Source: Anaerolineales bacterium (GTDB taxonomy: Bacteria; Chloroflexota; Anaerolineae; Anaerolineales; Villigracilaceae). Taken from it: a stretch of 64,000 nt of DNA. The notes beneath the pieces were generated by a model. It had not been told where the DNA came from and searched no databases. It saw only the letters and a list, made by a program, of their open reading frames with translations. The DNA lies in the NCBI GenBank assembly GCA_050305405.1, contig JBNLFG010000015.1, positions 68,971-132,970 on the forward strand, read 5' to 3'. Below, piece after piece: positions 28,044 through 43,626 of the stretch. Each line of letters begins with the position of its first letter. The first letter of the stretch is position 1. Made by a program: the position numbers and the translations under genes.

Positions 28044-29615
28044 TTGCACAAATTTATGTCTATTCTAATCACAGTTTTAATACTATTCATCACCGCGCTG
28101 AGTTTACTCCTTTTGCGTCTCTTTTTACCAGATTTCCGCTACTCGTGGATATTGGCTGTAACAGGCGCTTTCATCGCGTGGATCAGTGTCTTGCTTTGGC
28201 ACCTGAGCCTGCCCATCGTCCTCTCCTTGCCTGTTTGGCAACCTGCCATTCTTTTTCCTGATTCGCCATTCTTTCTTGCCGATCAATCAGCGTGGGTATA
28301 TGCCTTCAGTCTGGTCACACTGATATTGGGGACTCTGCTAACAGCGATTGCGCGCCCTTACTCCCCAAACATCATGGCATGGATATCGACACTCGCTCTC
28401 GGCGGGGTCGGGCTTTTTGCAGTATTGGCAAACAATCCCCTGACCCTCGTGCTCGCATGGACGGCGATTGATCTGGCGGAGTTATTCACCTTGCTCGGTT
28501 CCGTCAAAGGCAAAAAGCTACGTGAGCGCGTGGTCATCTCTTTCACCACGCGCGTTTTGGGCTCTGCCTTTTTGCTCTGGGCAAATTTCGTCAGCGCAGC
28601 GGCGGGGACTTCGCTCAACTTTGTTGCGGCACCCAGCCAAGCGGGCATCTACATGCTTATTGCGGCTGGGTTACGCCTGGGTATACTTCCCATGCATCTC
28701 CCCTTTCGTACGGAATCAAGCCTACGTCGCGGGTTCGGGACGATGTTGCGTCTCACTTCAGCAGCATCCAGTTTGGTCTTGCTGGCACGCATCCCCTTTA
28801 GCAGTTTGCATTCCCCGCTAATCCCCTACATTTTAGGCCTCGTCACCATCGCTGCGCTCTACAGCAGTTGGATGTGGTTCCGTGCCAGCGAAACACTGGA
28901 CGCGCGCCCCTACTGGCTGCTCGGCATGGGCTCGCTCGCTCTCGCCGCGACTTTGCACGCCAACCCCACCGGCAGCATCGCCTGGGGGCTTGCTCTGGTC
29001 TTTGGCGGCGGCATCCTCTTTCTTTCATCCGTGGAGCACATCTGGCTGCGACGCCTGCTCTTTCTTAACGTCGCACTCATGGCCGGGCTACCCTTCACCT
29101 TTACAGCCACAGGCTGGGTCAGTAAAAGCGGAGCATGGTGGATATTTACGCCCTTCCTGCTGGCCGCACATGCGCTGCTTCTGGCAGGCTACATCCGACA
29201 TGCACGCCGCAGCGATAAAATACCACTCAACCTGGACAACACCTTCACGCGTATTCTCTACCCGGCTGGCATTCTTATTTTTAGCATCTCGCAAATTGCG
29301 CTTGGCGTCATCGGCTGGCCGGGCGCGGCACAATTCGGGGCATGGTTCTCCAGCATCATTGTCGCCTTGCTCATCGCAGGATTAATTTGGCTGCGTCCAC
29401 GTATTCGTGCCTTCAACCCTCTGGATGCACATTGGCTCAAGCCAAATAGCGAAACAAGTTTCAACAGGGTCTACAATATTTTCTGGAATATCTACTACTC
29501 TCTGCGCAGTTTTAGCGAACAGATCACCCGCATCCTTGAAAGTGATGGCGGAATCTTGTGGGCGCTGCTTTTCCTGATCGCATTTGCATCTCTTCTTGCG
29601 GGAGGCATCCGCTAA
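28044..29615 (+). CDS. Divergent complex-I antiporter-like membrane subunit (PF00361-like, NuoL/M/N superfamily)
   Basis: 523 aa with roughly 14 TM segments. Weak LPxH..E...P antiporter core motif. Confidence 0.45.
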   Translation: MHKFMSILITVLILFITALSLLLLRLFLPDFRYSWILAVTGAFIAWISVLLWHLSLPIVLSLPVWQPAILFPDSPFFLADQSAWVYAFSLVTLILGTLLTAIARPYSPNIMAWISTLALGGVGLFAVLANNPLTLVLAWTAIDLAELFTLLGSVKGKKLRERVVISFTTRVLGSAFLLWANFVSAAAGTSLNFVAAPSQAGIYMLIAAGLRLGILPMHLPFRTESSLRRGFGTMLRLTSAASSLVLLARIPFSSLHSPLIPYILGLVTIAALYSSWMWFRASETLDARPYWLLGMGSLALAATLHANPTGSIAWGLALVFGGGILFLSSVEHIWLRRLLFLNVALMAGLPFTFTATGWVSKSGAWWIFTPFLLAAHALLLAGYIRHARRSDKIPLNLDNTFTRILYPAGILIFSISQIALGVIGWPGAAQFGAWFSSIIVALLIAGLIWLRPRIRAFNPLDAHWLKPNSETSFNRVYNIFWNIYYSLRSFSEQITRILESDGGILWALLFLIAFASLLAGGIR

Positions 29616-30220
29616 TGTTCGCCAATATCCTCACCTGGGGTGCCGTACTGCTTCTTTTTGCTGCATCCATATCCCTTCTGGTTTCCAACGATTGGCGTCG
29701 TACGCTTGCCTTTCTTGCCGTACTCTATCTCGGCGTTTTCGGATTAACTCTGACACACTGGACTCTCTCGATGGCAGCCGTCAAACTGGTTACCGGCTGG
29801 ATGGCAGCCACCATTCTGGGTATCACCCGATCCGCCCCCGACCTTGAACCTGCTTCCGCGCCCAGAGACTCGCTCCCCGAGAATATCCTCTTCCGCATCT
29901 TTGCCTCGATCATTCTTGCCATCGTCGTCTTCTCGGCCACCCCACTCGTAACCGACCTGCTCCCCGGCATTGGCAGCGCCGAGGTCGCTGGCGGGCTCGT
30001 CCTGATGATGATGGGCTTACTCCATCTCGGTCTAACCATCGAACCCCTGCGCGTGGTGATTGGCTTATTAACCGTGCTGGCTGGCTTTGAGATCATCTAC
30101 GCCTCGGTGGAAAGCTCAACGCTGGTCGCTGCGCTTCTCGCCCTCATCAACCTGGGCTTGGCGTTAGTTGGGGCCTATCTACTTACCGCCGCTCCCGATG
30201 AAGAGGAGATCAGTCTATGA
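29615..30220 (+). CDS. Small polytopic membrane subunit (NuoJ/ND6- or MnhB-like)
   Basis: 202 aa with 5 TM segments. TAATG overlap with the upstream gene. Confidence 0.4.
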   Translation: MFANILTWGAVLLLFAASISLLVSNDWRRTLAFLAVLYLGVFGLTLTHWTLSMAAVKLVTGWMAATILGITRSAPDLEPASAPRDSLPENILFRIFASIILAIVVFSATPLVTDLLPGIGSAEVAGGLVLMMMGLLHLGLTIEPLRVVIGLLTVLAGFEIIYASVESSTLVAALLALINLGLALVGAYLLTAAPDEEEISL

Positions 30221-31617
30221 GCGCGCCCTTCATTTGGATTATTCTGCCTATCATCCTTGCGCCATTCCTGTGGCTGCCCCGTCGTGCCAATCTAACCGCC
30301 TTTTTGGGAGGTTCTGTCGCGCTCTTTTTTGCTGTTTTCGCATGGCTCTTTCCCATTGACACCGCCCTGCGAATTTCGGCAGACATTTCGATAAAACTAT
30401 CGCCATCCCTCACTATTTTAGGACGCCAAATTCTTCTCAGCCCGGAACGACAGCCTTTACTCGTGCTAATCTACGGGATAACAGCGCTCTGGTTCTTCGG
30501 CTCAAGCGCCGCCGGAATCGCCCGTCGTTTGGTCCCGTTAGGGTTAAGCATCACGGCTCTTCTGGTGGCATCGTTAGCAGTGGAACCTTTTCTCTACGCA
30601 GCCCTGCTCATCCAAACCGTTGTCCTGCTCGCTGTACCTCTGCTTTCGCCTCTCGACCAAAAACCCGGGCGTGGCATTTTACGCTTTTTGATCTACCAAA
30701 CACTGGCGATGCCCTTCATTCTCTTTGCAGGTTGGCTATTGGCAGGTGTCGAATCCAGCCCCGGGGATATTGAACTTGTTGTCCAATCAGCAACGCTGCT
30801 GGCATTGGGCTTTGCCTTCCTGCTGGCAATCTTCCCACTCTACACTTGGATCCCGCTATTGCTCGAAGAGACGTCACCCTATGCAGTTGGCTTCATCTTG
30901 TGGCTGCTCTCCACGGCGACATTGCTCTTTGCGATCAGCTTCCTGAACCGCTACGCCTGGCTGCGTGAATTTCCGCAACTACCCACTGCGTTGCGTTCCG
31001 CAGGGTTGCTGATGATAGCAACGGGTGGCATCTGGGCGGCGTTCCAGCGGCATCTCGGTAGATTGATGGGCTATGCAACTGTGATGAATACAGGTTTTGC
31101 GCTGCTCTCCCTGAGCTTATTGCGAGAGTATCAACTCTCGGCATTTTTTCTATTGCTCGTCCCACAGGCTCTGGGATTAGCTGTTTGGTCATTATCTCTC
31201 TCGGTTTTGCAACTACGAGAAGGGTCACTTGAATTAAGTAAGCTGCAGGGCATCCTGCAACGTTACCCGGTTATCTTTTCGGGGTTACTTTTTGCGCATT
31301 TTTCAGCGGCATCCCTGCCTTTGCTGGCTGGTTTTCCGGCAATCCTGTCCATTTGGGAGGGGGTAGCGCGGGAAACAATTGGGGGCGCGCTCTGGGTTGC
31401 TGCGGGGCTGGCAGGTTTATTTATAGGAGCGATCCGCACATTGGCTGTAGGCGTTATGTCTGCTGAAGAAGAGAAATGGTCGCTTGGTGGCAGTTATCTG
31501 CAAAACATCCTGATTGGGATTGGGATGCTTTTCCTTTTGATCTTGGGCATTCTCCCGCAGTGGTTGCATCCGCTGCTGATAAATTTACCGGCTGCATTTG
31601 AACGACTTGGTGGATAA
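30217..31617 (+). CDS. Divergent NuoN/MnhD-like proton-antiporter-family subunit
   Basis: YTWIPLLLEETSPYAVGFILWLLSTATLL aligns to the [22 protein letters not shown] core of PF00361. GYATVMNTGFALLSL resembles AYSSIAHMGF. Confidence 0.6.
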   Translation: MSAPFIWIILPIILAPFLWLPRRANLTAFLGGSVALFFAVFAWLFPIDTALRISADISIKLSPSLTILGRQILLSPERQPLLVLIYGITALWFFGSSAAGIARRLVPLGLSITALLVASLAVEPFLYAALLIQTVVLLAVPLLSPLDQKPGRGILRFLIYQTLAMPFILFAGWLLAGVESSPGDIELVVQSATLLALGFAFLLAIFPLYTWIPLLLEETSPYAVGFILWLLSTATLLFAISFLNRYAWLREFPQLPTALRSAGLLMIATGGIWAAFQRHLGRLMGYATVMNTGFALLSLSLLREYQLSAFFLLLVPQALGLAVWSLSLSVLQLREGSLELSKLQGILQRYPVIFSGLLFAHFSAASLPLLAGFPAILSIWEGVARETIGGALWVAAGLAGLFIGAIRTLAVGVMSAEEEKWSLGGSYLQNILIGIGMLFLLILGILPQWLHPLLINLPAAFERLGG

Positions 31618-31692
31618 TAAAGTTGCATCCAAAAGACAGGATGTTTGACAAGCAGTGCTATAATCTGCCGAGATTGTCACTTGGAGGTTTCC

Positions 31693-32877
31693 ATGGAATT
31701 TGAACAAATCATAAAACAGCTTGACTGGCTGGATGAAGAACGACGTAAAGATAAAGCGACTATCGCTGCGCAAGTAGAGCATATTGCCACGTTAAATGCT
31801 ACATTGAAAACGCTCGAAGAAAAAACAAAATCACTAGAGAAAGAAATGACGGGCTATGCCTCGCTAAATGCCAGAGTGGAACAGTTTGATGGTTTTTTGG
31901 CGCAAGTTCGTGAAGAGATGGGCGAGACCTTTGGCAAGATGGATAAAAGTGCCAAGGTACGAGAAAAAGAATTGATCGAACGCTTTGAGAGCCAACTTCC
32001 TGAATTCAAAGAGGCGATCACAGATATTCGCAGCAAGATCGATGTTTCAGATATTCGGCGTGACCTGAAGACTCGTGAAAACGAAGAGGTGCGTCTGAGC
32101 GCGGCCTTTACCGAGGTAAAGGCCAAGTTTGACGAGGTCGTCAAAAGCAATAAAGACCTGCAATATGCACAAACGCTCTACGAAGAAAATCGCCGTCAGG
32201 ATCAGAAACGTTTCGCTGATACACAGGGCGAGATCGTGGCTTTACGCAAACGACTCGACGAAGAGCGCGACAAACATCAATTGAATACCGACAACCTGAA
32301 AAATATTGATGCTCGTGTTGCGGAAGTGCTCGCAAGCGAACATAAACGTAAACAAGAGCAAACCGAATTTATTGACAAGCAAATGATCCAATACGCAGAC
32401 CGTGAGCGTGTCTGGAACGAATGGCTTGAAAAAGCGGATACCTTTGCAACCCAGACTGAACTACTTGACACTGAGCTTCAAAAGATGAACGAAGCCACAC
32501 GCGCTACCAAAAAAGCGGAAGAAAGCTACGCTGAACTCAGCCAGAAGATCGAACGTCGCGTACATGAGATCACAGAGATGCAGCGCCTTGCAGAAGACCG
32601 CTTGCGTCAGGAATGGGTCACCTTCAAAGCCGATGACCAAAAACGTTGGACGGGCTATGGGCTCACTCAAGATGAGACCATGAAGAATATCCAAAAGGCT
32701 CTGCAAAAGCTCGAAGAGCGCATGACCGACCTTGATGACAGCGCCCAAACCATGCAAGACAAACTCGAACAAACCACAGATGTGACCGAGCATCAGATGC
32801 AGGAATTGATGAATTGGGCGCACGAATGGCTGACGGCTTACGAACGCGTCATGGGGCACACAAAGAAGAGTAGTTAA
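31693..32877 (+). CDS. K/E-rich coiled-coil protein of unknown function
   Basis: GGAGG RBS and a TGcTATAAT extended -10 upstream. Heptad-rich charged sequence. Confidence 0.5.
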   Translation: MEFEQIIKQLDWLDEERRKDKATIAAQVEHIATLNATLKTLEEKTKSLEKEMTGYASLNARVEQFDGFLAQVREEMGETFGKMDKSAKVREKELIERFESQLPEFKEAITDIRSKIDVSDIRRDLKTRENEEVRLSAAFTEVKAKFDEVVKSNKDLQYAQTLYEENRRQDQKRFADTQGEIVALRKRLDEERDKHQLNTDNLKNIDARVAEVLASEHKRKQEQTEFIDKQMIQYADRERVWNEWLEKADTFATQTELLDTELQKMNEATRATKKAEESYAELSQKIERRVHEITEMQRLAEDRLRQEWVTFKADDQKRWTGYGLTQDETMKNIQKALQKLEERMTDLDDSAQTMQDKLEQTTDVTEHQMQELMNWAHEWLTAYERVMGHTKKSS

Positions 32878-32880
32878 TTT

Positions 32881-34749
32881 ATGCGCGTTATCGGCACCGC
32901 CGGACATGTAGACCACGGTAAATCCACCCTCATCGCTGCGCTGACGGGTACCCATCCTGACCGCTTGAAAGAAGAGCAAGAGCGCGAGATGACCATAGAA
33001 CTCGGCTTTGGTTGGCTGACGCTACCCGATGGCGAAGAGATCGGCATTGTCGATGTCCCCGGTCACCGCGATTTTATCGGCAACATGCTCGCGGGCATTG
33101 GCGGCATTGATGCAGTGGTACTCGTCATCGCCGCCGACGAAGGCGTGATGCCCCAAACCAAAGAGCATCTCGCCATTCTCGACCTGCTTCAAATCCCCAG
33201 CGGCATGGTTGCCCTGACCAAAACCGATCTCGTCCCCGATGCTGAGTGGCTCGACCTCGTCGAAGCCGACATCCGCGAGAGCCTTGAAGGCACGGTACTC
33301 GAAAATGCGCCTTTTGTGCGAGTCTCCGCCAAAGCCAAAACGGGCTTAGACGAGTTCCTAACCACACTTACAAACCTACTGAAAGACAAACCCGAGCGTC
33401 TTGATCTCGGTCGCCCGCGCCTGCCGATTGACCGCACCTTCACCATCGCGGGCTTCGGCACGGTCGTCACCGGCACACTCGCGGATGGCAGTCTAAGCAT
33501 CGGTGATGAAGTCGTCGTGCTGCCATCCGGTCAAAAGGGGCGCGTGCGCGGTCTCCAAACCCACAAGAAAAAAGAAGAATTTTCCGTTCCTGGCAGCCGC
33601 ACCGCTGTCAATATCTCCGGTATTTCGCTCGAAGATATTCGGCGCGGCGAAGTTGTCGTCAAACCGGGACAATATGAATCGACACGCCGACTAGACACGC
33701 ATCTGCGCCTGCTGGATGATATATCCCAACCACTGAAGCATAATACCGAAGTGAAACTCTTCGTCGGCGCGTCCGAGACGATCGCGACCCTGCGCTTGCT
33801 CGGCGTCGAGATGCTTAATCCCGGTGACGAGGGCTGGATCCAACTAGAACTACGCGACCCGACCGTAACCGTGCGCGGCGACCGCTACATCCTGCGCCGC
33901 CCCTCCCCTGCCGAAACGCTTGGCGGCGGCGTGATCGTCGATCATCAACCCAAAGGTCGCCACAAACGCTTTGACGAGAAAGCCATCGAAAAACTGACAT
34001 CGCTCATGGCTGGCTCACCCGCCGACTTACTCTATCAAGCCTCCCTGACGAATGGAGCCGACCTGCTCCAAAACCTGATCCGCGATGCCCGTCTTGAAGA
34101 AGCCGATGCTGCAATAGCCATCGATGAACTTTTTACAGAAGGTAAACTGACCGAACTCGCCAATAAATATGTTATGGCAACGCCCCAATGGGAAACGCTC
34201 CAGAGCCGCACCGTGAATATGGTCACGACCTATCACGAGAATTTTCCTTTGCGGCGTGGCGTGCCGCGCGAGGAGTTGAAGAGCAGGCTCAAGATCGACA
34301 CGAAACTCTTCAACGCCATGTTGACAAAACTCGTCGAGGCAGAGCTGCTCGTCGAAGCGGGGAAAACGGTCGCCCTGCCGACACACGGCATCACGTTTGG
34401 GAGCAAGGAGCAAGCCAAAATTTCAGAGTTGATGCGCCAATTTGATGCAAATCCCTTCTCACCGCCAACAGTCAAATTAGCCACCGAGGAAGTTGGCGAG
34501 GAAATCTTCAACGCCTTAGTCGTACTTGAAGAGTTGATCCAACTTTCGGCAGAGGTGGTTTTCCGTAAATCCGATTATGAAAAAATGATTGGCATGCTGC
34601 GCGAGTATTTGGCAGCGAACGAAAAAATCACCGTCGCCAATGCGCGTGACTTGTACAACACCAGCCGTCGCTACGTGCTGGCCTTTTTGGAGCATCTCGA
34701 TGCCCAGCGCGTGACCCGACGCGATGGCGATTACCGGGTCTTAAACTAA
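32881..34749 (+). CDS. selB: Selenocysteine-specific translation elongation factor SelB
   Basis: MRVIGTAGHVDHGKSTLIAALTG G-domain. Roughly 620 aa with C-terminal winged-helix SECIS-binding domains. Confidence 0.85.
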   Translation: MRVIGTAGHVDHGKSTLIAALTGTHPDRLKEEQEREMTIELGFGWLTLPDGEEIGIVDVPGHRDFIGNMLAGIGGIDAVVLVIAADEGVMPQTKEHLAILDLLQIPSGMVALTKTDLVPDAEWLDLVEADIRESLEGTVLENAPFVRVSAKAKTGLDEFLTTLTNLLKDKPERLDLGRPRLPIDRTFTIAGFGTVVTGTLADGSLSIGDEVVVLPSGQKGRVRGLQTHKKKEEFSVPGSRTAVNISGISLEDIRRGEVVVKPGQYESTRRLDTHLRLLDDISQPLKHNTEVKLFVGASETIATLRLLGVEMLNPGDEGWIQLELRDPTVTVRGDRYILRRPSPAETLGGGVIVDHQPKGRHKRFDEKAIEKLTSLMAGSPADLLYQASLTNGADLLQNLIRDARLEEADAAIAIDELFTEGKLTELANKYVMATPQWETLQSRTVNMVTTYHENFPLRRGVPREELKSRLKIDTKLFNAMLTKLVEAELLVEAGKTVALPTHGITFGSKEQAKISELMRQFDANPFSPPTVKLATEEVGEEIFNALVVLEELIQLSAEVVFRKSDYEKMIGMLREYLAANEKITVANARDLYNTSRRYVLAFLEHLDAQRVTRRDGDYRVLN

Positions 34750-41446: not shown

Positions 41447-41588
41447 AAAACCTCTTGTAATAGAATTTTGGAAAAGACACAAAATTATAATGTGAGGTTC
41501 TCTGGTCTCTATCCCCCATTTGTGTAGAAAAAAAACTACAGACTTTGTAAGTGTGTCTATAGCTTTATATTCACATCTTTTAATTGTT

Positions 41589-42053
41589 TTAGTTGAGCGT
41601 TCTCAGAATTTCGAGCAATTCCTGGTTCTCCGGGATGTCACTCATCGAATGGCCGTAGTGGGCATAACGTGCCACGCCCGCTTTATCGACGATGACCTGT
41701 GCAGGCATACGTCCCAATTTGAAGAGTTTGACTTCTTGCCCAAAGAGCTTCAGCACACTATGTTTAGGGTCGGGAATGCCGATAAAGGGCAGGGTATGCT
41801 CATCCCAATATTTGGCGAAGGCAGCTTCGTTTTCTGGCCCGACCACCAGAATGGTTGTTTGGGCAGCTTCAAATTTTGCGTAGTCATGGCGCAACTGCGC
41901 CATATGCCGTTGGCAATAGGGTCAGAGGAAGCCACGATTGAAAACGAGCAGGACATTGCTCTCTTGGCGGAATTCGGACAAGGTGATGGGGCGTCCGGTG
42001 AAACTATCTAATGAAAAATCGGGGGCTGGGGCGTTGATCTCTACTTTTGGCAT
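41589..42053 (-). CDS. Peroxiredoxin-like (AhpC/TSA / redoxin family) selenoprotein. The in-frame TGA at 41922..41924 encodes Sec in a U-P-Y-C redox motif.
   Basis: Continuous reading frame MPKVEINAPAPDFSL...VLLVFNRGFL-[TGA]-PYCQRHMAQLRHDYAKF. The TGA sits at the conserved peroxidatic Cys position. A downstream hairpin, an RBS and selB in the window support it. Confidence 0.75.
41883..41900 (-). ncRNA. Putative bacterial SECIS element (mRNA hairpin AUGGCGC-AGUU-GCGCCAU)
   Basis: 7-bp perfect stem and a 4-nt GU-containing apical loop. Starts 19 nt 3' of the UGA. Confidence 0.55.
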
Positions 42054-42054
42054 A

Positions 42055-42813
42055 TTATTTCTCCGCTTGGAATTTTATCAGTACTGCATACAAAAATGCA
42101 ATCAAAACCAAGCCAAAGCTTACCCAAATCGCCGAGGTGACAATGCCATTTTGCGGGAATTTGACTCCGATGCCAAATAAGGCCCAGAGAAAAACGGCGA
42201 GATAAGCAAGGTCCCAGCGGCGGAGGGAGATTGCCCACGCTAAGGCTACGACCACGATCAGGATGATGACCATCCACGTTTCAGCGGCGATGCCGAACTG
42301 TCCCCATTTGAAGTAGTAGAGCACGTCGCTGACGTTGGCGATGGTGGCAACCGATATCCAGCCGAGATAAATACTAAATGGAACGGAAGCAAGCCAAAAT
42401 TCCACGCGTGTCGCGTTTTCGTTATCCTGTCTTAAACCTTCGTAGGTGAAGAGCAGGCTGGCGAGCAAAATCAGCATGAAGACTAAGGTCCAACCGAATA
42501 GTTGGTAATGCCAACAGAATATCCAGGTGGCATTGACGAGATTACCGAGCACAACCCACCAGCCGATGCGAGCCAGACGCGGATTGTCGCGTTGTTTTGG
42601 GCTGGCTTGGTAGATGGCAAAGGCGATCAGCCCGATGTAGATAATGCCCCAAATTGAGAAAACATATCCAGCGGGGACGAAGTAAGTGTTGAAGCTATCG
42701 GAGACTTCGCCGGTGGTCAGCCCGTTGATGGGCAGGGCGTTGGCAAGACCGTTGACCGTGATAGTCAGGATGGTGCTGAGAAGCACAGCTATTTGACGGA
42801 AGGTGATTTTCAT
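42055..42813 (-). CDS. TspO/MBR-like tryptophan-rich membrane protein (tentative)
   Basis: Multi-TM protein with an FVPAGYVFSIWGIIY block resembling TspO_MBR. Longer than canonical TspO. Confidence 0.45.
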   Translation of the reverse strand: MKITFRQIAVLLSTILTITVNGLANALPINGLTTGEVSDSFNTYFVPAGYVFSIWGIIYIGLIAFAIYQASPKQRDNPRLARIGWWVVLGNLVNATWIFCWHYQLFGWTLVFMLILLASLLFTYEGLRQDNENATRVEFWLASVPFSIYLGWISVATIANVSDVLYYFKWGQFGIAAETWMVIILIVVVALAWAISLRRWDLAYLAVFLWALFGIGVKFPQNGIVTSAIWVSFGLVLIAFLYAVLIKFQAEK

Positions 42814-43253
42814 TTTTCACTCCTTAATGCGCGTTTGGTTGCCCATGCGCGATAGGTGAATAAAAATTGCAAGCTAAGTCTGCCAAAAAGCAGATGGGTG
42901 AAAAGCCCGCGCCAACCTTTGGGATGACGATATTCGATCTGCTCGTGGATGCGGGTTTGTCTTTCATTGATCGTTTCAAAGCGATGCGTATGCGCCCAAA
43001 ACTCCATCGGGCCGCTCTCTTGTGTATCGGTGAAGCCTTGCTCGCTAACGTTGCTATGCACCGCTCGCCAACGGATGGGAATCGGCCCCAGCCAGAGCGT
43101 GAATTCGGAGATTGAGCCTTCGCCCATCGGATCGGCACGATGAAGCTGCATCGGCGTTGGGCTGAGTTTTTTGAGTGCGCTGGTATGGCGATGAAATTCG
43201 GCTACATCGGCAAGCGGCGCATACACGGTGAAGCTGTAATTGAAAGTCGGCAT
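42810..43253 (-). CDS. SRPBCC-superfamily (cyclase/dehydrase-like) protein
   Basis: FWAHTHRFE motif shared with the paralog at 49052. Confidence 0.6.
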   Translation of the reverse strand: MPTFNYSFTVYAPLADVAEFHRHTSALKKLSPTPMQLHRADPMGEGSISEFTLWLGPIPIRWRAVHSNVSEQGFTDTQESGPMEFWAHTHRFETINERQTRIHEQIEYRHPKGWRGLFTHLLFGRLSLQFLFTYRAWATKRALRSEK

Positions 43254-43254
43254 C

Positions 43255-43626
43255 TTACTCCAGGAATTCGATCTTGATAGAAGTATGCTGCACCCTCTTC
43301 ATCTTGCCCATCAAACGAAACCCTTGAAACGCCAAGCCGTATTTTTTGCGCATCAAACTAGTTGTGAAGGATAAGGCTTCCGGCGATTCATTTGTTGTAG
43401 CGTGAGCATCGATCCACTCACCAAGCGGCTCACCACTCGCCGTTGAGGGGACAACTTTCACCGCACCATTATTGCGAATGCGTTTCGCTTTCCATGAATC
43501 AGCTTGCGTCCAGACGTAAAAAACATCTCGATCCTGCACAAACCAGACGGGCGTTTTAACACCTACGCCGCTCTTGCGAAAGGTTTCGATATTGAGATAT
43601 TTTTGGTTTTTAAATTGGTCTAGCAT
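43255..43626 (-). CDS. Pyridoxamine 5'-phosphate oxidase-like (PPOX-class, possibly F420/FMN-binding) protein
   Basis: Size and split-barrel family pattern. Confidence 0.55.
   Translation of the reverse strand: MLDQFKNQKYLNIETFRKSGVGVKTPVWFVQDRDVFYVWTQADSWKAKRIRNNGAVKVVPSTASGEPLGEWIDAHATTNESPEALSFTTSLMRKKYGLAFQGFRLMGKMKRVQHTSIKIEFLE

What the first reader, a model, noticed from the sequence alone, without database searches (positions are those of the whole stretch)
41883..41900. SECIS-like hairpin immediately 3' of the in-frame UGA
The mRNA reads UGA CCC UAU UGC CAA CGG CAU followed by AUGGCGC-AGUU-GCGCCAU. That is a perfect 7-bp stem with a 4-nt apical loop containing GU, beginning 19 nt after the UGA. 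This geometry falls within the range reported for bacterial SECIS elements that SelB binds.
Basis: seen in the sequence. Interest (0 to 1): 0.55.

Follow-up and report, generated by a model that had tools for sequence, protein, structure and literature searches.

The report
Selenocysteine insertion hairpin in peroxiredoxin-like gene
The small RNA hairpin after the in-frame UGA of this peroxiredoxin-like gene is very probably a genuine bacterial selenocysteine-insertion signal (SECIS), but it belongs to a selenoprotein family that is already known, so it is a solid yet ordinary result.

Summary
The hairpin exists as described (AUGGCGC-AGUU-GCGCCAU, minus strand), but at 41886-41903, 3 nt from the stated coordinates. 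It lies 18 nt after the UGA (41924-41922) of a 154-codon AhpC/TSA-fold gene (42053-41589) with a U-P-Y-C motif.

In this sequence alone it is not significant: the window holds 75 comparable hairpins. Comparison with other sequences settles it.
- In 23 UGA-containing orthologues from several phyla, the only invariant run of 6 nt or more in the gene is ATGGCGCAGTTGCG. Ala-GCG, Gln-CAG and Leu-UUG are the only 3 of 79 conserved degenerate codon columns with no synonymous variation.
- Variant Sec forms keep the stem through compensatory changes that alter amino acids (Ala/Arg to Met/His, Thr+CGU, Ser+CGA). G-U wobbles place the structure in the sense RNA.
- The four inner pairs are intact in 30/30 Sec forms and 4/10 Cys forms. 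The MAQLR peptide occurs in 0/11 divergent Cys representatives.
- The hairpin meets all published bSECIS criteria: 4-nt loop, G then U, 25-nt spacing, -10.6 to -12 kcal/mol.
- A selB gene with SECIS-binding winged-helix domains lies 7 kb away.

This is a new member of the known Prx-like UxxC selenoprotein family, so interest is low to moderate.

The parts
41589..42053 (-). Prx-like (AhpC/TSA-Redoxin fold) selenoprotein gene: 154 codons plus a TAA stop, with the redox motif U-P-Y-C.
   Evidence: Translation. Pfam AhpC-TSA 6e-20 and Redoxin 2.7e-16. Full-length collinear orthologues with a TGA at the same codon in 26 of 27 genome loci.
41922..41924 (-). In-frame UGA (codon 44), read as selenocysteine.
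   Evidence: TGA in 23/23 close orthologues. It aligns with the first Cys of CxxC in Cys homologues.
41886..41903 (-). SECIS hairpin as seen in the window: stem AUGGCGC/GCGCCAU, loop AGUU (41896-41893). It encodes M51-A-Q-L-R-H56.
41887..41902 (-). Conserved SECIS core: a 6-bp stem (UGGCGC/GCGCCA) plus the 4-nt loop with G30 U31 (numbering the U of UGA as 1).
   Evidence: RNAalifold consensus. Pair counts: four inner pairs paired in 30/30, three pairs with compensatory changes, covariation score 0.215 against 0.121 for shuffles (0/500). Invariant 14-nt run ATGGCGCAGTTGCG.
41905..41915 (-). Possible accessory 3-bp mini-helix UGC/GCA with a 5-nt loop between the UGA and the hairpin. It includes a constrained G at UGA+18 (41907).
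   Evidence: RNAalifold. The third position of codon +5 is G in 28/30 despite four different amino acids. Weak evidence: there is no double covariation.
42061..42064 (-). GGAG ribosome-binding site 7 nt upstream of the ATG. The stop codon of the upstream ORF (42057-42055) lies 1 nt before the ATG.
   Evidence: Read directly from the sequence and the ORF list.
32881..34749 (+). selB, the selenocysteine-specific elongation factor. It is the trans-acting protein expected to bind the hairpin.
   Evidence: NCBIfam TIGR00475 selB, 329.5 bits (cut-off 242.25), E = 4e-98. Pfam SelB-wing_2, SelB-wing_3 and Beta-barrel_SelB.

Best explanation
The hairpin is the bacterial SECIS element of a Prx-like UxxC selenoprotein mRNA.

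Proposed mechanism: while the ribosome decodes the gene, the 6-8 bp stem with its AGUU loop forms in the mRNA 25 nt downstream of the UGA. The C-terminal winged-helix domain of SelB, which is encoded 7 kb away in the same window, binds the loop (G30, U31) and stem. This tethers SelB-GTP-Sec-tRNASec at the ribosome, so UGA-44 is read as selenocysteine rather than stop. The product is a thioredoxin-fold redox protein with a Sec-Pro-Tyr-Cys active site.

Because the element lies inside the reading frame, it constrains both the synonymous sites and the amino acids M-A-Q-L-R.

Shown here: the hairpin itself, RNA-level purifying selection, covariation, loss of the hairpin in Cys forms, and the presence of selB.

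Inferred, not shown: physical binding by SelB and actual Sec insertion.
For: (1) Geometry fits the published bSECIS model (loop 3-9 nt, stem 4-16 bp, G in the first two loop positions followed by G or U, 16-37 nt from UGA to loop, MFE <= -7.5; PMC13188914). Here the values are loop AGUU, stem 6-8 bp, spacing 25 nt, and -10.6 to -12.1 kcal/mol.

(2) In 23 UGA orthologues (58-98% aa identity) labelled Chloroflexota, Actinomycetes, delta proteobacterium, Coriobacteriia and Cellvibrionaceae, only 3 of 79 conserved degenerate codon columns use a single codon. These three are adjacent: Ala52 GCG, Gln53 CAG and Leu54 UUG. GCG and UUG make up only 17% and 18% of Ala and Leu codons elsewhere in the same genes. 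Arg55 is only CGC or CGU, both of which pair with G25. The sole invariant run of 6 nt or more in the gene is ATGGCGCAGTTGCG. The loci were retrieved with peptide patterns lying outside these codons.

(3) Covariation: pair 25-36 is GC 20, GU 5, AU 4, UA 1; pair 26-35 is CG 27, UA 3; pair 24-37 is GC 27, CG 1. These changes are achieved through coupled amino-acid changes: Ala/Arg to Met/His, Thr with CGU, and Ser with CGA. The G-U wobbles pair only in the sense RNA.

(4) The loop sequence itself is constrained. CAA (41% of Gln codons elsewhere) is never used, and CUG (37% of Leu codons) is used only once, so the loop is AGUU in 28/30.

(5) Relaxation in Cys forms. The inner four pairs are intact in 30/30 Sec forms and 4/10 Cys forms (Fisher p = 5.5e-5). 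Among sequences that keep the MAQLR peptide, the full codon set GCG-CAG-UUG-CGY is kept in 23/23 Sec and 4/8 Cys forms. MAQLR occurs in 0/11 divergent Cys representatives and 32/44 UGA-truncated representatives.

(6) selB with its SECIS-binding winged helices is in the window.

(7) TGA is an ordinary stop for 7 of 44 long ORFs in the window.
Against: There is no experimental evidence for SelB binding or Sec incorporation. No tRNA-Sec, selA or selD was found in the 64-kb window, although most of the genome was not seen.

The single-sequence fold is not significant (z = -0.74).

The sequences compared are phylogenetically related, so the Fisher and shuffle statistics overstate independence.

The hairpin lacks the bulged U of the E. 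coli fdhF SECIS, and its GU lies 7 nt further from the UGA.

Four of ten Cys forms still carry an intact hairpin.

Three distant Sec forms (L024, L025, L027) do not keep this register.

Rfam has no model that matches.
Confidence: 0.9

Rival explanations
1. The hairpin is incidental. The protein needs the helix residues M-A-Q-L-R, and the palindrome follows from those codons, so it has no RNA function.
For: The closest Cys homologues also have HMAQLR, and 4 of 10 carry the same nucleotides. The peptide sits just after the CxxC motif, in a region likely to be structurally important.
Against: Synonymous sites are frozen only at these codons in Sec forms. Rare codons (GCG 17%, UUG 18%) are fixed. 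Amino acids change in pairs that preserve base pairing. Divergent Cys forms do not keep MAQLR (0/11). Cys forms that do keep the peptide show stem-breaking synonymous changes (GCA, CGG, CGA, UUA) never seen in the 30 Sec forms.
Confidence: 0.03
2. The structure is a real, selected RNA element with a function other than recruiting SelB, for example ribosome pausing, mRNA stability or regulation.
For: Covariation and synonymous constraint prove that a structure is selected, not who binds it. No binding data exist. A hairpin downstream of a stop codon can slow the ribosome in a general way.
Against: The constraint tracks the UGA and decays when UGA becomes UGY. The loop bases G and U, which are the SelB contacts in E. 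coli, are themselves fixed although the alternatives would be synonymous. The spacing is constant at 25 nt, inside the bSECIS range. selB is present.
Confidence: 0.05
3. The palindrome acts at the DNA level or on the antisense strand (a protein-binding site or antisense RNA), or it marks an internal translation start at AUG-51.
For: ATGGCGCAACTGCGCCAT is a perfect DNA palindrome. Gene callers do start truncated ORFs at this AUG.
Against: G-U wobble pairs (9 cells in 3 pairs) would be C-A mismatches on the other strand or in DNA. Codon 51 is CUC or CUA in Sec forms with an intact stem (L023, L045), and HLAQLR and HIAQLR variants exist, so the AUG is not required. A product starting at M51 would lack the active site.
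Confidence: 0.01
4. The UGA is a true stop: a pseudogene, a sequencing error or a split gene. Alternatively, the genome reassigns UGA (code 4 or 25), so no SECIS is needed.
For: Public protein databases hold this family either truncated at M51 or translated with W at the site. One relative has TTA at the site (L049) and two others have Arg there in their database protein sequences (P0045, P0094; DNA not examined).
Against: TGA is conserved at exactly the catalytic-Cys position in 26 of 27 genome loci from many lineages, with both halves under protein-level conservation. TGA terminates 7 of 44 long ORFs in the window. selB is present. The W forms carry TGA in the DNA and do not translate to the database protein under code 11.
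Confidence: 0.01

Closest known systems
Bacterial SECIS consensus model (bSECISearch; Zhang and Gladyshev 2005, as summarised in PMC13188914, Fig. 2)
   Same: A hairpin inside the ORF just 3' of the Sec-UGA. Small apical loop (4 nt) with G in the second position followed by U. Upper stem 6-8 bp. 25 nt from UGA to loop (allowed range 16-37). Free energy below -7.5 kcal/mol.
   Different: No convincing lower stem, only a doubtful 3-bp mini-helix. The sequence is unusually fixed: a 14-nt invariant run across phyla, whereas bSECIS elements are described as having little sequence resemblance to each other.
E. coli fdhF SECIS, the experimentally defined SelB-binding hairpin
   Same: A stem-loop read by SelB with an essential G-U dinucleotide in the apical loop. 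It is located in the coding sequence after the UGA.
   Different: In E. coli the minimal 17-nt hairpin starts 11 nt from the UGA, has a bulged U17, and has GU at positions 23-24. Here there is no bulge, the stem starts at nt 22-23, and GU is at positions 30-31.
Prx-like thiol:disulfide oxidoreductase selenoproteins ('Prx-like 1', PF00578, UxxC)
   Same: AhpC/TSA domain and a UxxC motif in place of the TxxU motif of true Sec-peroxiredoxins. Sec forms outnumber Cys forms, and occurrence in deltaproteobacteria is shared with the literature. Among our own loci it is also found in Chloroflexota and Actinomycetes MAGs.
   Different: This copy is from an Anaerolineales-type genome (98% identical to MAG JBNKMO010000074). 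It does not reach the NCBIfam cut-off for 'SelL-related redox protein' (76 bits against 120).
Remnant ('fossil') SECIS-like structures in Cys homologues derived from selenoproteins (PMC1794560, Fig. 4)
   Same: Some Cys forms of this family (L030, L031, L032, L034) still carry the intact hairpin after the Cys codon. Others show early decay through single stem-breaking substitutions.
   Different: The cited paper describes these for FdhA and HesB-like proteins. Here the same pattern is seen in the Prx-like family.

Membership tests
Bacterial SECIS (bSECIS consensus model) | [quoted passage not shown] | tested here: met
   UGA at codon 44, with the hairpin at codons 51-56. Cys homologues have TGY at the same codon.
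Bacterial SECIS (bSECIS consensus model) | Apical loop 3-9 nt and upper stem 4-16 bp | tested here: met
   Loop of 4 nt. Stem of 7 bp (8 with U-G) in the window, with a 6-bp conserved core.
Bacterial SECIS (bSECIS consensus model) | At least one G in the first two loop positions, usually followed by G or U | tested here: met
   The loop is A-G-U-U. A G falls in the first two loop positions in all 30 Sec forms (loop position 2 in 29, position 1 in L023's GCCU loop); the following U is kept in 28 of 30, even though synonymous alternatives exist.
Bacterial SECIS (bSECIS consensus model) | 16-37 nt between the UGA and the apical loop | tested here: met
   25 nt, with no indel in any of the 30 Sec forms.
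Bacterial SECIS (bSECIS consensus model) | Free energy <= -7.5 kcal/mol | tested here: met
   -10.6 kcal/mol for the 6-bp core and -12.1 kcal/mol for the 20-nt segment in the window. A few AT-rich variants (L036, L039, L045, L047) score only -3.5 to -6.4.
Bacterial SECIS (bSECIS consensus model) | Structure conserved by selection in orthologous selenoprotein genes and relaxed in Cys forms | tested here: met
   (30/30 against 4/10).
Bacterial SECIS (bSECIS consensus model) | Binds SelB and directs Sec insertion at the UGA | not testable with these tools
   This needs a reporter assay, 75Se labelling or a gel-shift binding assay. Only the selB gene was shown to be present.
Bacterial SECIS (bSECIS consensus model) | [quoted passage not shown] | tested here: inconclusive
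   selB was found at 32881-34749. No tRNA is present in the window. selA and selD were not among the 36 window ORFs scanned, 28 of them in the selB and prx-like neighbourhoods. The rest of the genome is not available.
E. coli fdhF-type SECIS | Bulged U in the 5' arm, with the minimal hairpin starting 11 nt from the UGA and GU at positions 23-24 | tested here: not met
   The stem is perfect with no bulge, and GU is at positions 30-31. It works like this element but is not of this subtype.
Rfam RNA families | Match to a curated covariance model | tested here: not met
   No hit at the gathering threshold in the window. No hit at the hairpin at E <= 10. No Rfam model matched the hairpin, so this says nothing against SECIS identity.
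Prx-like thiol:disulfide oxidoreductase selenoprotein (UxxC, PF00578) | AhpC/TSA (PF00578) domain | tested here: met
   71.9 bits against a cut-off of 26.
Prx-like thiol:disulfide oxidoreductase selenoprotein (UxxC, PF00578) | A UxxC redox motif, with Sec at the position of the first Cys of CxxC homologues | tested here: met
   U-P-Y-C in the window and C-P-F-C in the Cys forms.
SelL-related redox protein (NCBIfam NF040769) | Score above the curated cut-off | tested here: not met
   76.1 bits against a cut-off of 120.

The most novel reading that the evidence does not exclude
In this Prx-like subfamily the SECIS may be an unusually sequence-specific, near-invariant 14-nt module (AUGGCGCAGUUGCG, loop AGUU). 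It is shared across at least five bacterial lineages and may be extended by a constrained G at +18 and a mini-helix. On this reading the RNA, not the protein, dictates the M-A-Q-L-R peptide and forces coupled amino-acid substitutions (Ala/Arg to Met/His, Thr/Arg-CGU, Ser/Arg-CGA). That would make it a clean natural model for RNA-protein co-constraint, and for a SelB recognition code that travels with the gene during horizontal transfer.
Probability: 0.5. Interest if true: 0.4.

Novelty: new member of a known kind. Interest (0 to 1): 0.25.

Why it matters
The result confirms that this gene should be annotated as one 154-residue selenoprotein, not as the 43-aa and 104-aa fragments, or the Trp-containing translations, that fill public protein databases.

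It shows that an Anaerolineales-type Chloroflexota genome uses the Sec-decoding trait, with selB nearby.

It also gives a compact, well-supported SECIS consensus for the Prx-like subfamily: stem UGGCGC/GCGCCA, loop AGUU, 25 nt from the UGA. This could improve automatic selenoprotein annotation. It illustrates how an intragenic RNA signal shapes amino-acid sequence.

It does not reveal a new mechanism.

Tried and rejected
- Rfam at the gathering threshold on the whole window, and at E <= 10 on 41500-42150, found nothing at the hairpin. No model matched the hairpin, so this is uninformative.
- Single-sequence folding statistics were not significant (z = -0.74). The count of comparable hairpins shows the motif alone cannot be called.
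- A longer lower stem seen in the window's minimum-free-energy fold (GGCUUC...GAAGCU) is not conserved and is absent from the consensus fold of -15 to +84. It was rejected.
- A 4-bp UGCC/GGCA helper stem in the window is not conserved. Only a 3-bp UGC/GCA version survives in the consensus fold, and it rests on invariant Cys and His codon bases.
- The metagenome pattern scan for Cys forms with C-P-[FY]-C-x-x-H-M-A-Q-L-R returned only 5 loci.
- A crude scan of the window for other ORF pairs split by TGA gave 72 candidates, nearly all frame artefacts. None besides this gene had a redox motif.
- The ORF directly upstream of selB (31645-32877) was tested as a possible selA. It has no Pfam or NCBIfam hit.
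- The distant Sec forms L024, L025 and L027 do not keep the hairpin register. L027 has a different 7-bp, GUU-loop hairpin 17 nt after the UGA, while L024 and L025 are unclear. They were left out of the alignment and remain unresolved.

Full report
**1. What is in the sequence**

The feature lies on the minus strand. An ORF starts at ATG 42053-42051, preceded by GGAG at 42064-42061. It runs 154 codons to TAA at 41591-41589 if the TGA at 41924-41922 is read through. The product is MPKVEINAPAPDF...VFNRGFL-U-PYCQRHMAQLRHDY.... It matches Pfam AhpC-TSA (6e-20) and Redoxin (2.7e-16). Its best NCBIfam hit, below the cut-off, is 'SelL-related redox protein'.

AUGGCGC/GCGCCAU forms a perfect 7-bp stem around the loop AGUU, and RNAfold adds a flanking U-G pair. 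There are 18 nt between the UGA and the stem, and 25 nt between the UGA and the loop.

**2. Is it more than chance?**

From this one sequence, no.
- The 66-nt region folds no better than shuffles (z = -0.74).
- The window contains 75 perfect 7-bp hairpins with 3-9 nt loops, against about 32 in Markov simulations.
- About 15 distinct TGA-plus-hairpin sites (21 raw matches, some overlapping) meet the loose SECIS geometry in some frame.

The question therefore had to be settled by comparing sequences.

**3. Orthologues**

A scan of one genome per species found 27 related loci, using peptide patterns that lie outside codons 51-55. Of these, 26 carry TGA at the same codon. Their record titles name Anaerolineae and other Chloroflexota, Actinomycetes, delta proteobacteria, Coriobacteriia, a Cellvibrionaceae MAG and a Bathyarchaeota MAG. 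The closest (98%) is an Anaerolineales MAG.

In the protein database the family appears in two forms. One is roughly 104-aa fragments starting at M51. The other is full-length proteins with W at the Sec position. The DNA of every such W form examined has TGA, so these are code-4 translations of the same selenoprotein gene.

**4. RNA-level selection**

I made a codon alignment of the window plus L001-L022, giving 23 sequences at 58-98% amino-acid identity.
- It has 79 columns with a conserved, degenerate amino acid.
- Only three of them use a single codon, and they are adjacent: Ala52 GCG, Gln53 CAG and Leu54 UUG.
- Elsewhere in the same genes, GCG, CAG and UUG make up 17%, 59% and 18% of their codon families.
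- Arg55 uses only CGC or CGU, both of which pair with the opposing G. Other Arg columns use up to six codons.
- The only run of 6 or more invariant nucleotides in the whole gene is ATGGCGCAGTTGCG.
- Neighbouring codons drift freely: Pro45 uses four codons, and His50 is CAU 10 and CAC 13.

**5. Covariation**

I deliberately fetched Sec forms whose peptide differs from MAQLR. Each keeps the stem through compensating changes.
- HMMQLH forms (L036-L039) read AUG AUG CAG UUG CAU. Two G-C pairs become A-U and U-A.
- The HMTQLR form (L044) reads ACG...CGU, giving A-U.
- The HLSQLR form (L045) reads UCG...CGA, giving U-A. This is the only occurrence of CGA at this Arg codon.
- The HMMQLY form (L047) reads AUG...UAU.
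- L023 swaps G-C for C-G.

On the 30-sequence alignment A1 the four inner pairs are paired in 30/30. Pair 25-36 shows GC 20, GU 5, AU 4 and UA 1. Pair 26-35 shows CG 27 and UA 3. The covariation score is 0.215 against 0.121 for shuffles (0 of 500 reach it) and at most 0.088 for slid registers. RNAalifold recovers the same 6-bp helix independently.

The outermost A-U pair of the window's stem is present in only 5 of 30, so the conserved element is 6 bp. The G-U wobbles would be mismatches on the opposite strand or in DNA, which places the structure in the sense RNA.

The loop is also fixed, as AGUU in 28/30. The synonymous CAA would remove the G, and the synonymous CUG would change the U. CAA is never used and CUG is used once.

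**6. The Cys-homologue control**

I assembled ten independent Cys forms.
- Five came from a metagenome scan with a pattern that fixed the peptide but left all synonymous sites free.
- Five came from the protein search.

The inner stem is intact in 4 (L030, L031, L032, L034) and broken in 6. The breaks are GCA in L029, CGG in L028, CGA in L033, UUA in L035, and loss of the peptide in L040 and L043. In Sec forms the stem is intact in 30/30 (Fisher p = 5.5e-5). The sequences are related, so this p-value is indicative only.

Among sequences that retain MAQLR, the full codon set is kept in 23/23 Sec forms and 4/8 Cys forms.

At greater divergence I used representatives of 50%-identity clusters. None of 11 Cys forms has MAQLR; they read HMALLR, HMDQLQ, HLNQLR, NLADLQ, HMARLR and so on. 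By contrast, 32 of 44 UGA-truncated forms starting at codon 51 have it.

So the protein fold does not require this peptide. The RNA imposes it while the UGA is present. The intact hairpins in some Cys forms fit the known phenomenon of remnant SECIS-like structures after Sec-to-Cys conversion (PMC1794560).

**7. Context**

The window encodes selB at 32881-34749. It scores 329.5 bits against TIGR00475 (cut-off 242). Pfam finds SelB-wing_2, SelB-wing_3 and the SelB beta-barrel. This is the factor whose C-terminal winged helix binds bacterial SECIS hairpins.

No tRNA gene lies in the window. No selA or selD was found among the ORFs scanned. TGA ends 7 of 44 long ORFs, so the genome does not reassign UGA generally.

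**8. Mechanism proposed**

SelB-GTP-Sec-tRNASec binds the AGUU loop and stem through its winged-helix domains and delivers Sec to the ribosomal A site at UGA-44. The product is a thioredoxin-fold protein with a Sec-x-x-Cys redox centre.

The following are shown: the structure, its selection, its link to the UGA, and the presence of selB. Binding and Sec insertion are inferred.

**9. Comparison with what is known**

The element meets every criterion of the published bSECIS model. It differs from the E. coli fdhF SECIS in having no bulged U and in placing GU at nt 30-31 rather than 23-24.

The gene belongs to the long-known 'Prx-like thiol:disulfide oxidoreductase' or 'Prx-like 1' UxxC selenoprotein family. 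Rfam has no matching model.

**10. Verdict**

Novelty is low: this is a new member of a known kind. The mildly notable points are:
- the near-invariance of a 14-nt SECIS core across phyla;
- the RNA-driven coupling of amino-acid substitutions;
- a possibly constrained G at +18;
- the systematic mis-annotation of this family in public protein sets.

Noticed in passing
window 32881-34749 (+): A complete selB gene (selenocysteine-specific elongation factor with winged-helix domains) lies about 7 kb from the selenoprotein gene. It is on the other strand and not in the same operon.
   Followed up: yes
window 31645-32877 (+), 28044-29615 (+) and 30217-31617 (+): The ORF directly upstream of selB, where selA often sits, is 410 aa and has no Pfam or NCBIfam hit. 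The 523-aa ORF also has no hit. The 466-aa ORF has only weak NuoN/MrpD-like membrane-protein similarity.
   Followed up: partly
window 41905-41915 (-), alignment A1 columns 10-20: The third position of the codon five after the UGA is G in 28 of 30 Sec forms, although it encodes K, A, R or E. It could pair with the third base of the Cys codon (UGC 26, UGU 4) in a 3-bp mini-helix just 5' of the SECIS stem. There is no double covariation, so this is unproven.
   Followed up: partly
window 42055-43626 (-): The selenoprotein gene is the last of four tightly packed minus-strand ORFs of 123, 147, 252 and 154 aa. The stop of the 252-aa ORF lies 1 nt before its ATG. The three upstream ORFs have no Pfam hits, and the 252-aa one looks like a multi-pass membrane protein.
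   Followed up: partly
P0001-P0120; loci L036-L048: Public protein collections hold this family in three forms: C-terminal fragments starting at M51, fragments starting at Leu54-UUG called as a start codon, or full-length proteins with W at the Sec site. In the loci checked, the DNA has TGA, so the W comes from code-4 gene calling on short contigs.
   Followed up: yes
L049:1001-1474 (P0002); also P0045 and P0094: One relative has TTA (Leu) in place of TGA, with a fully intact SECIS hairpin downstream. Two others have Arg at the site in their protein sequence. Each is one base away from TGA, so these are probably sequencing errors or very recent inactivating mutations.
   Followed up: partly
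L025 (WJJB01000003.1, Bathyarchaeota MAG) and L014 (Cellvibrionaceae MAG): UGA-containing homologues occur in bins assigned to an archaeon and to a gammaproteobacterium. The archaeal copy lacks the conserved hairpin register. The cause could be horizontal transfer, mis-binning or a different SECIS arrangement.
   Followed up: no
L024 and L027 (Anaerolineaceae MAGs, about 51-53% identity): These distant Sec forms have LARLR and LARMS in place of MAQLR and do not keep the hairpin register. L027 instead has a 7-bp stem with a GUU loop 17 nt after the UGA, which suggests SECIS turnover within the family.
   Followed up: partly
L036, L037, L039 and L047: In the HMMQLH/HMMQLY subclade the selenoprotein gene sits in a conserved position between rpsO (ribosomal protein S15) and pnp (PNPase). 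This context differs from that in the window.
   Followed up: no
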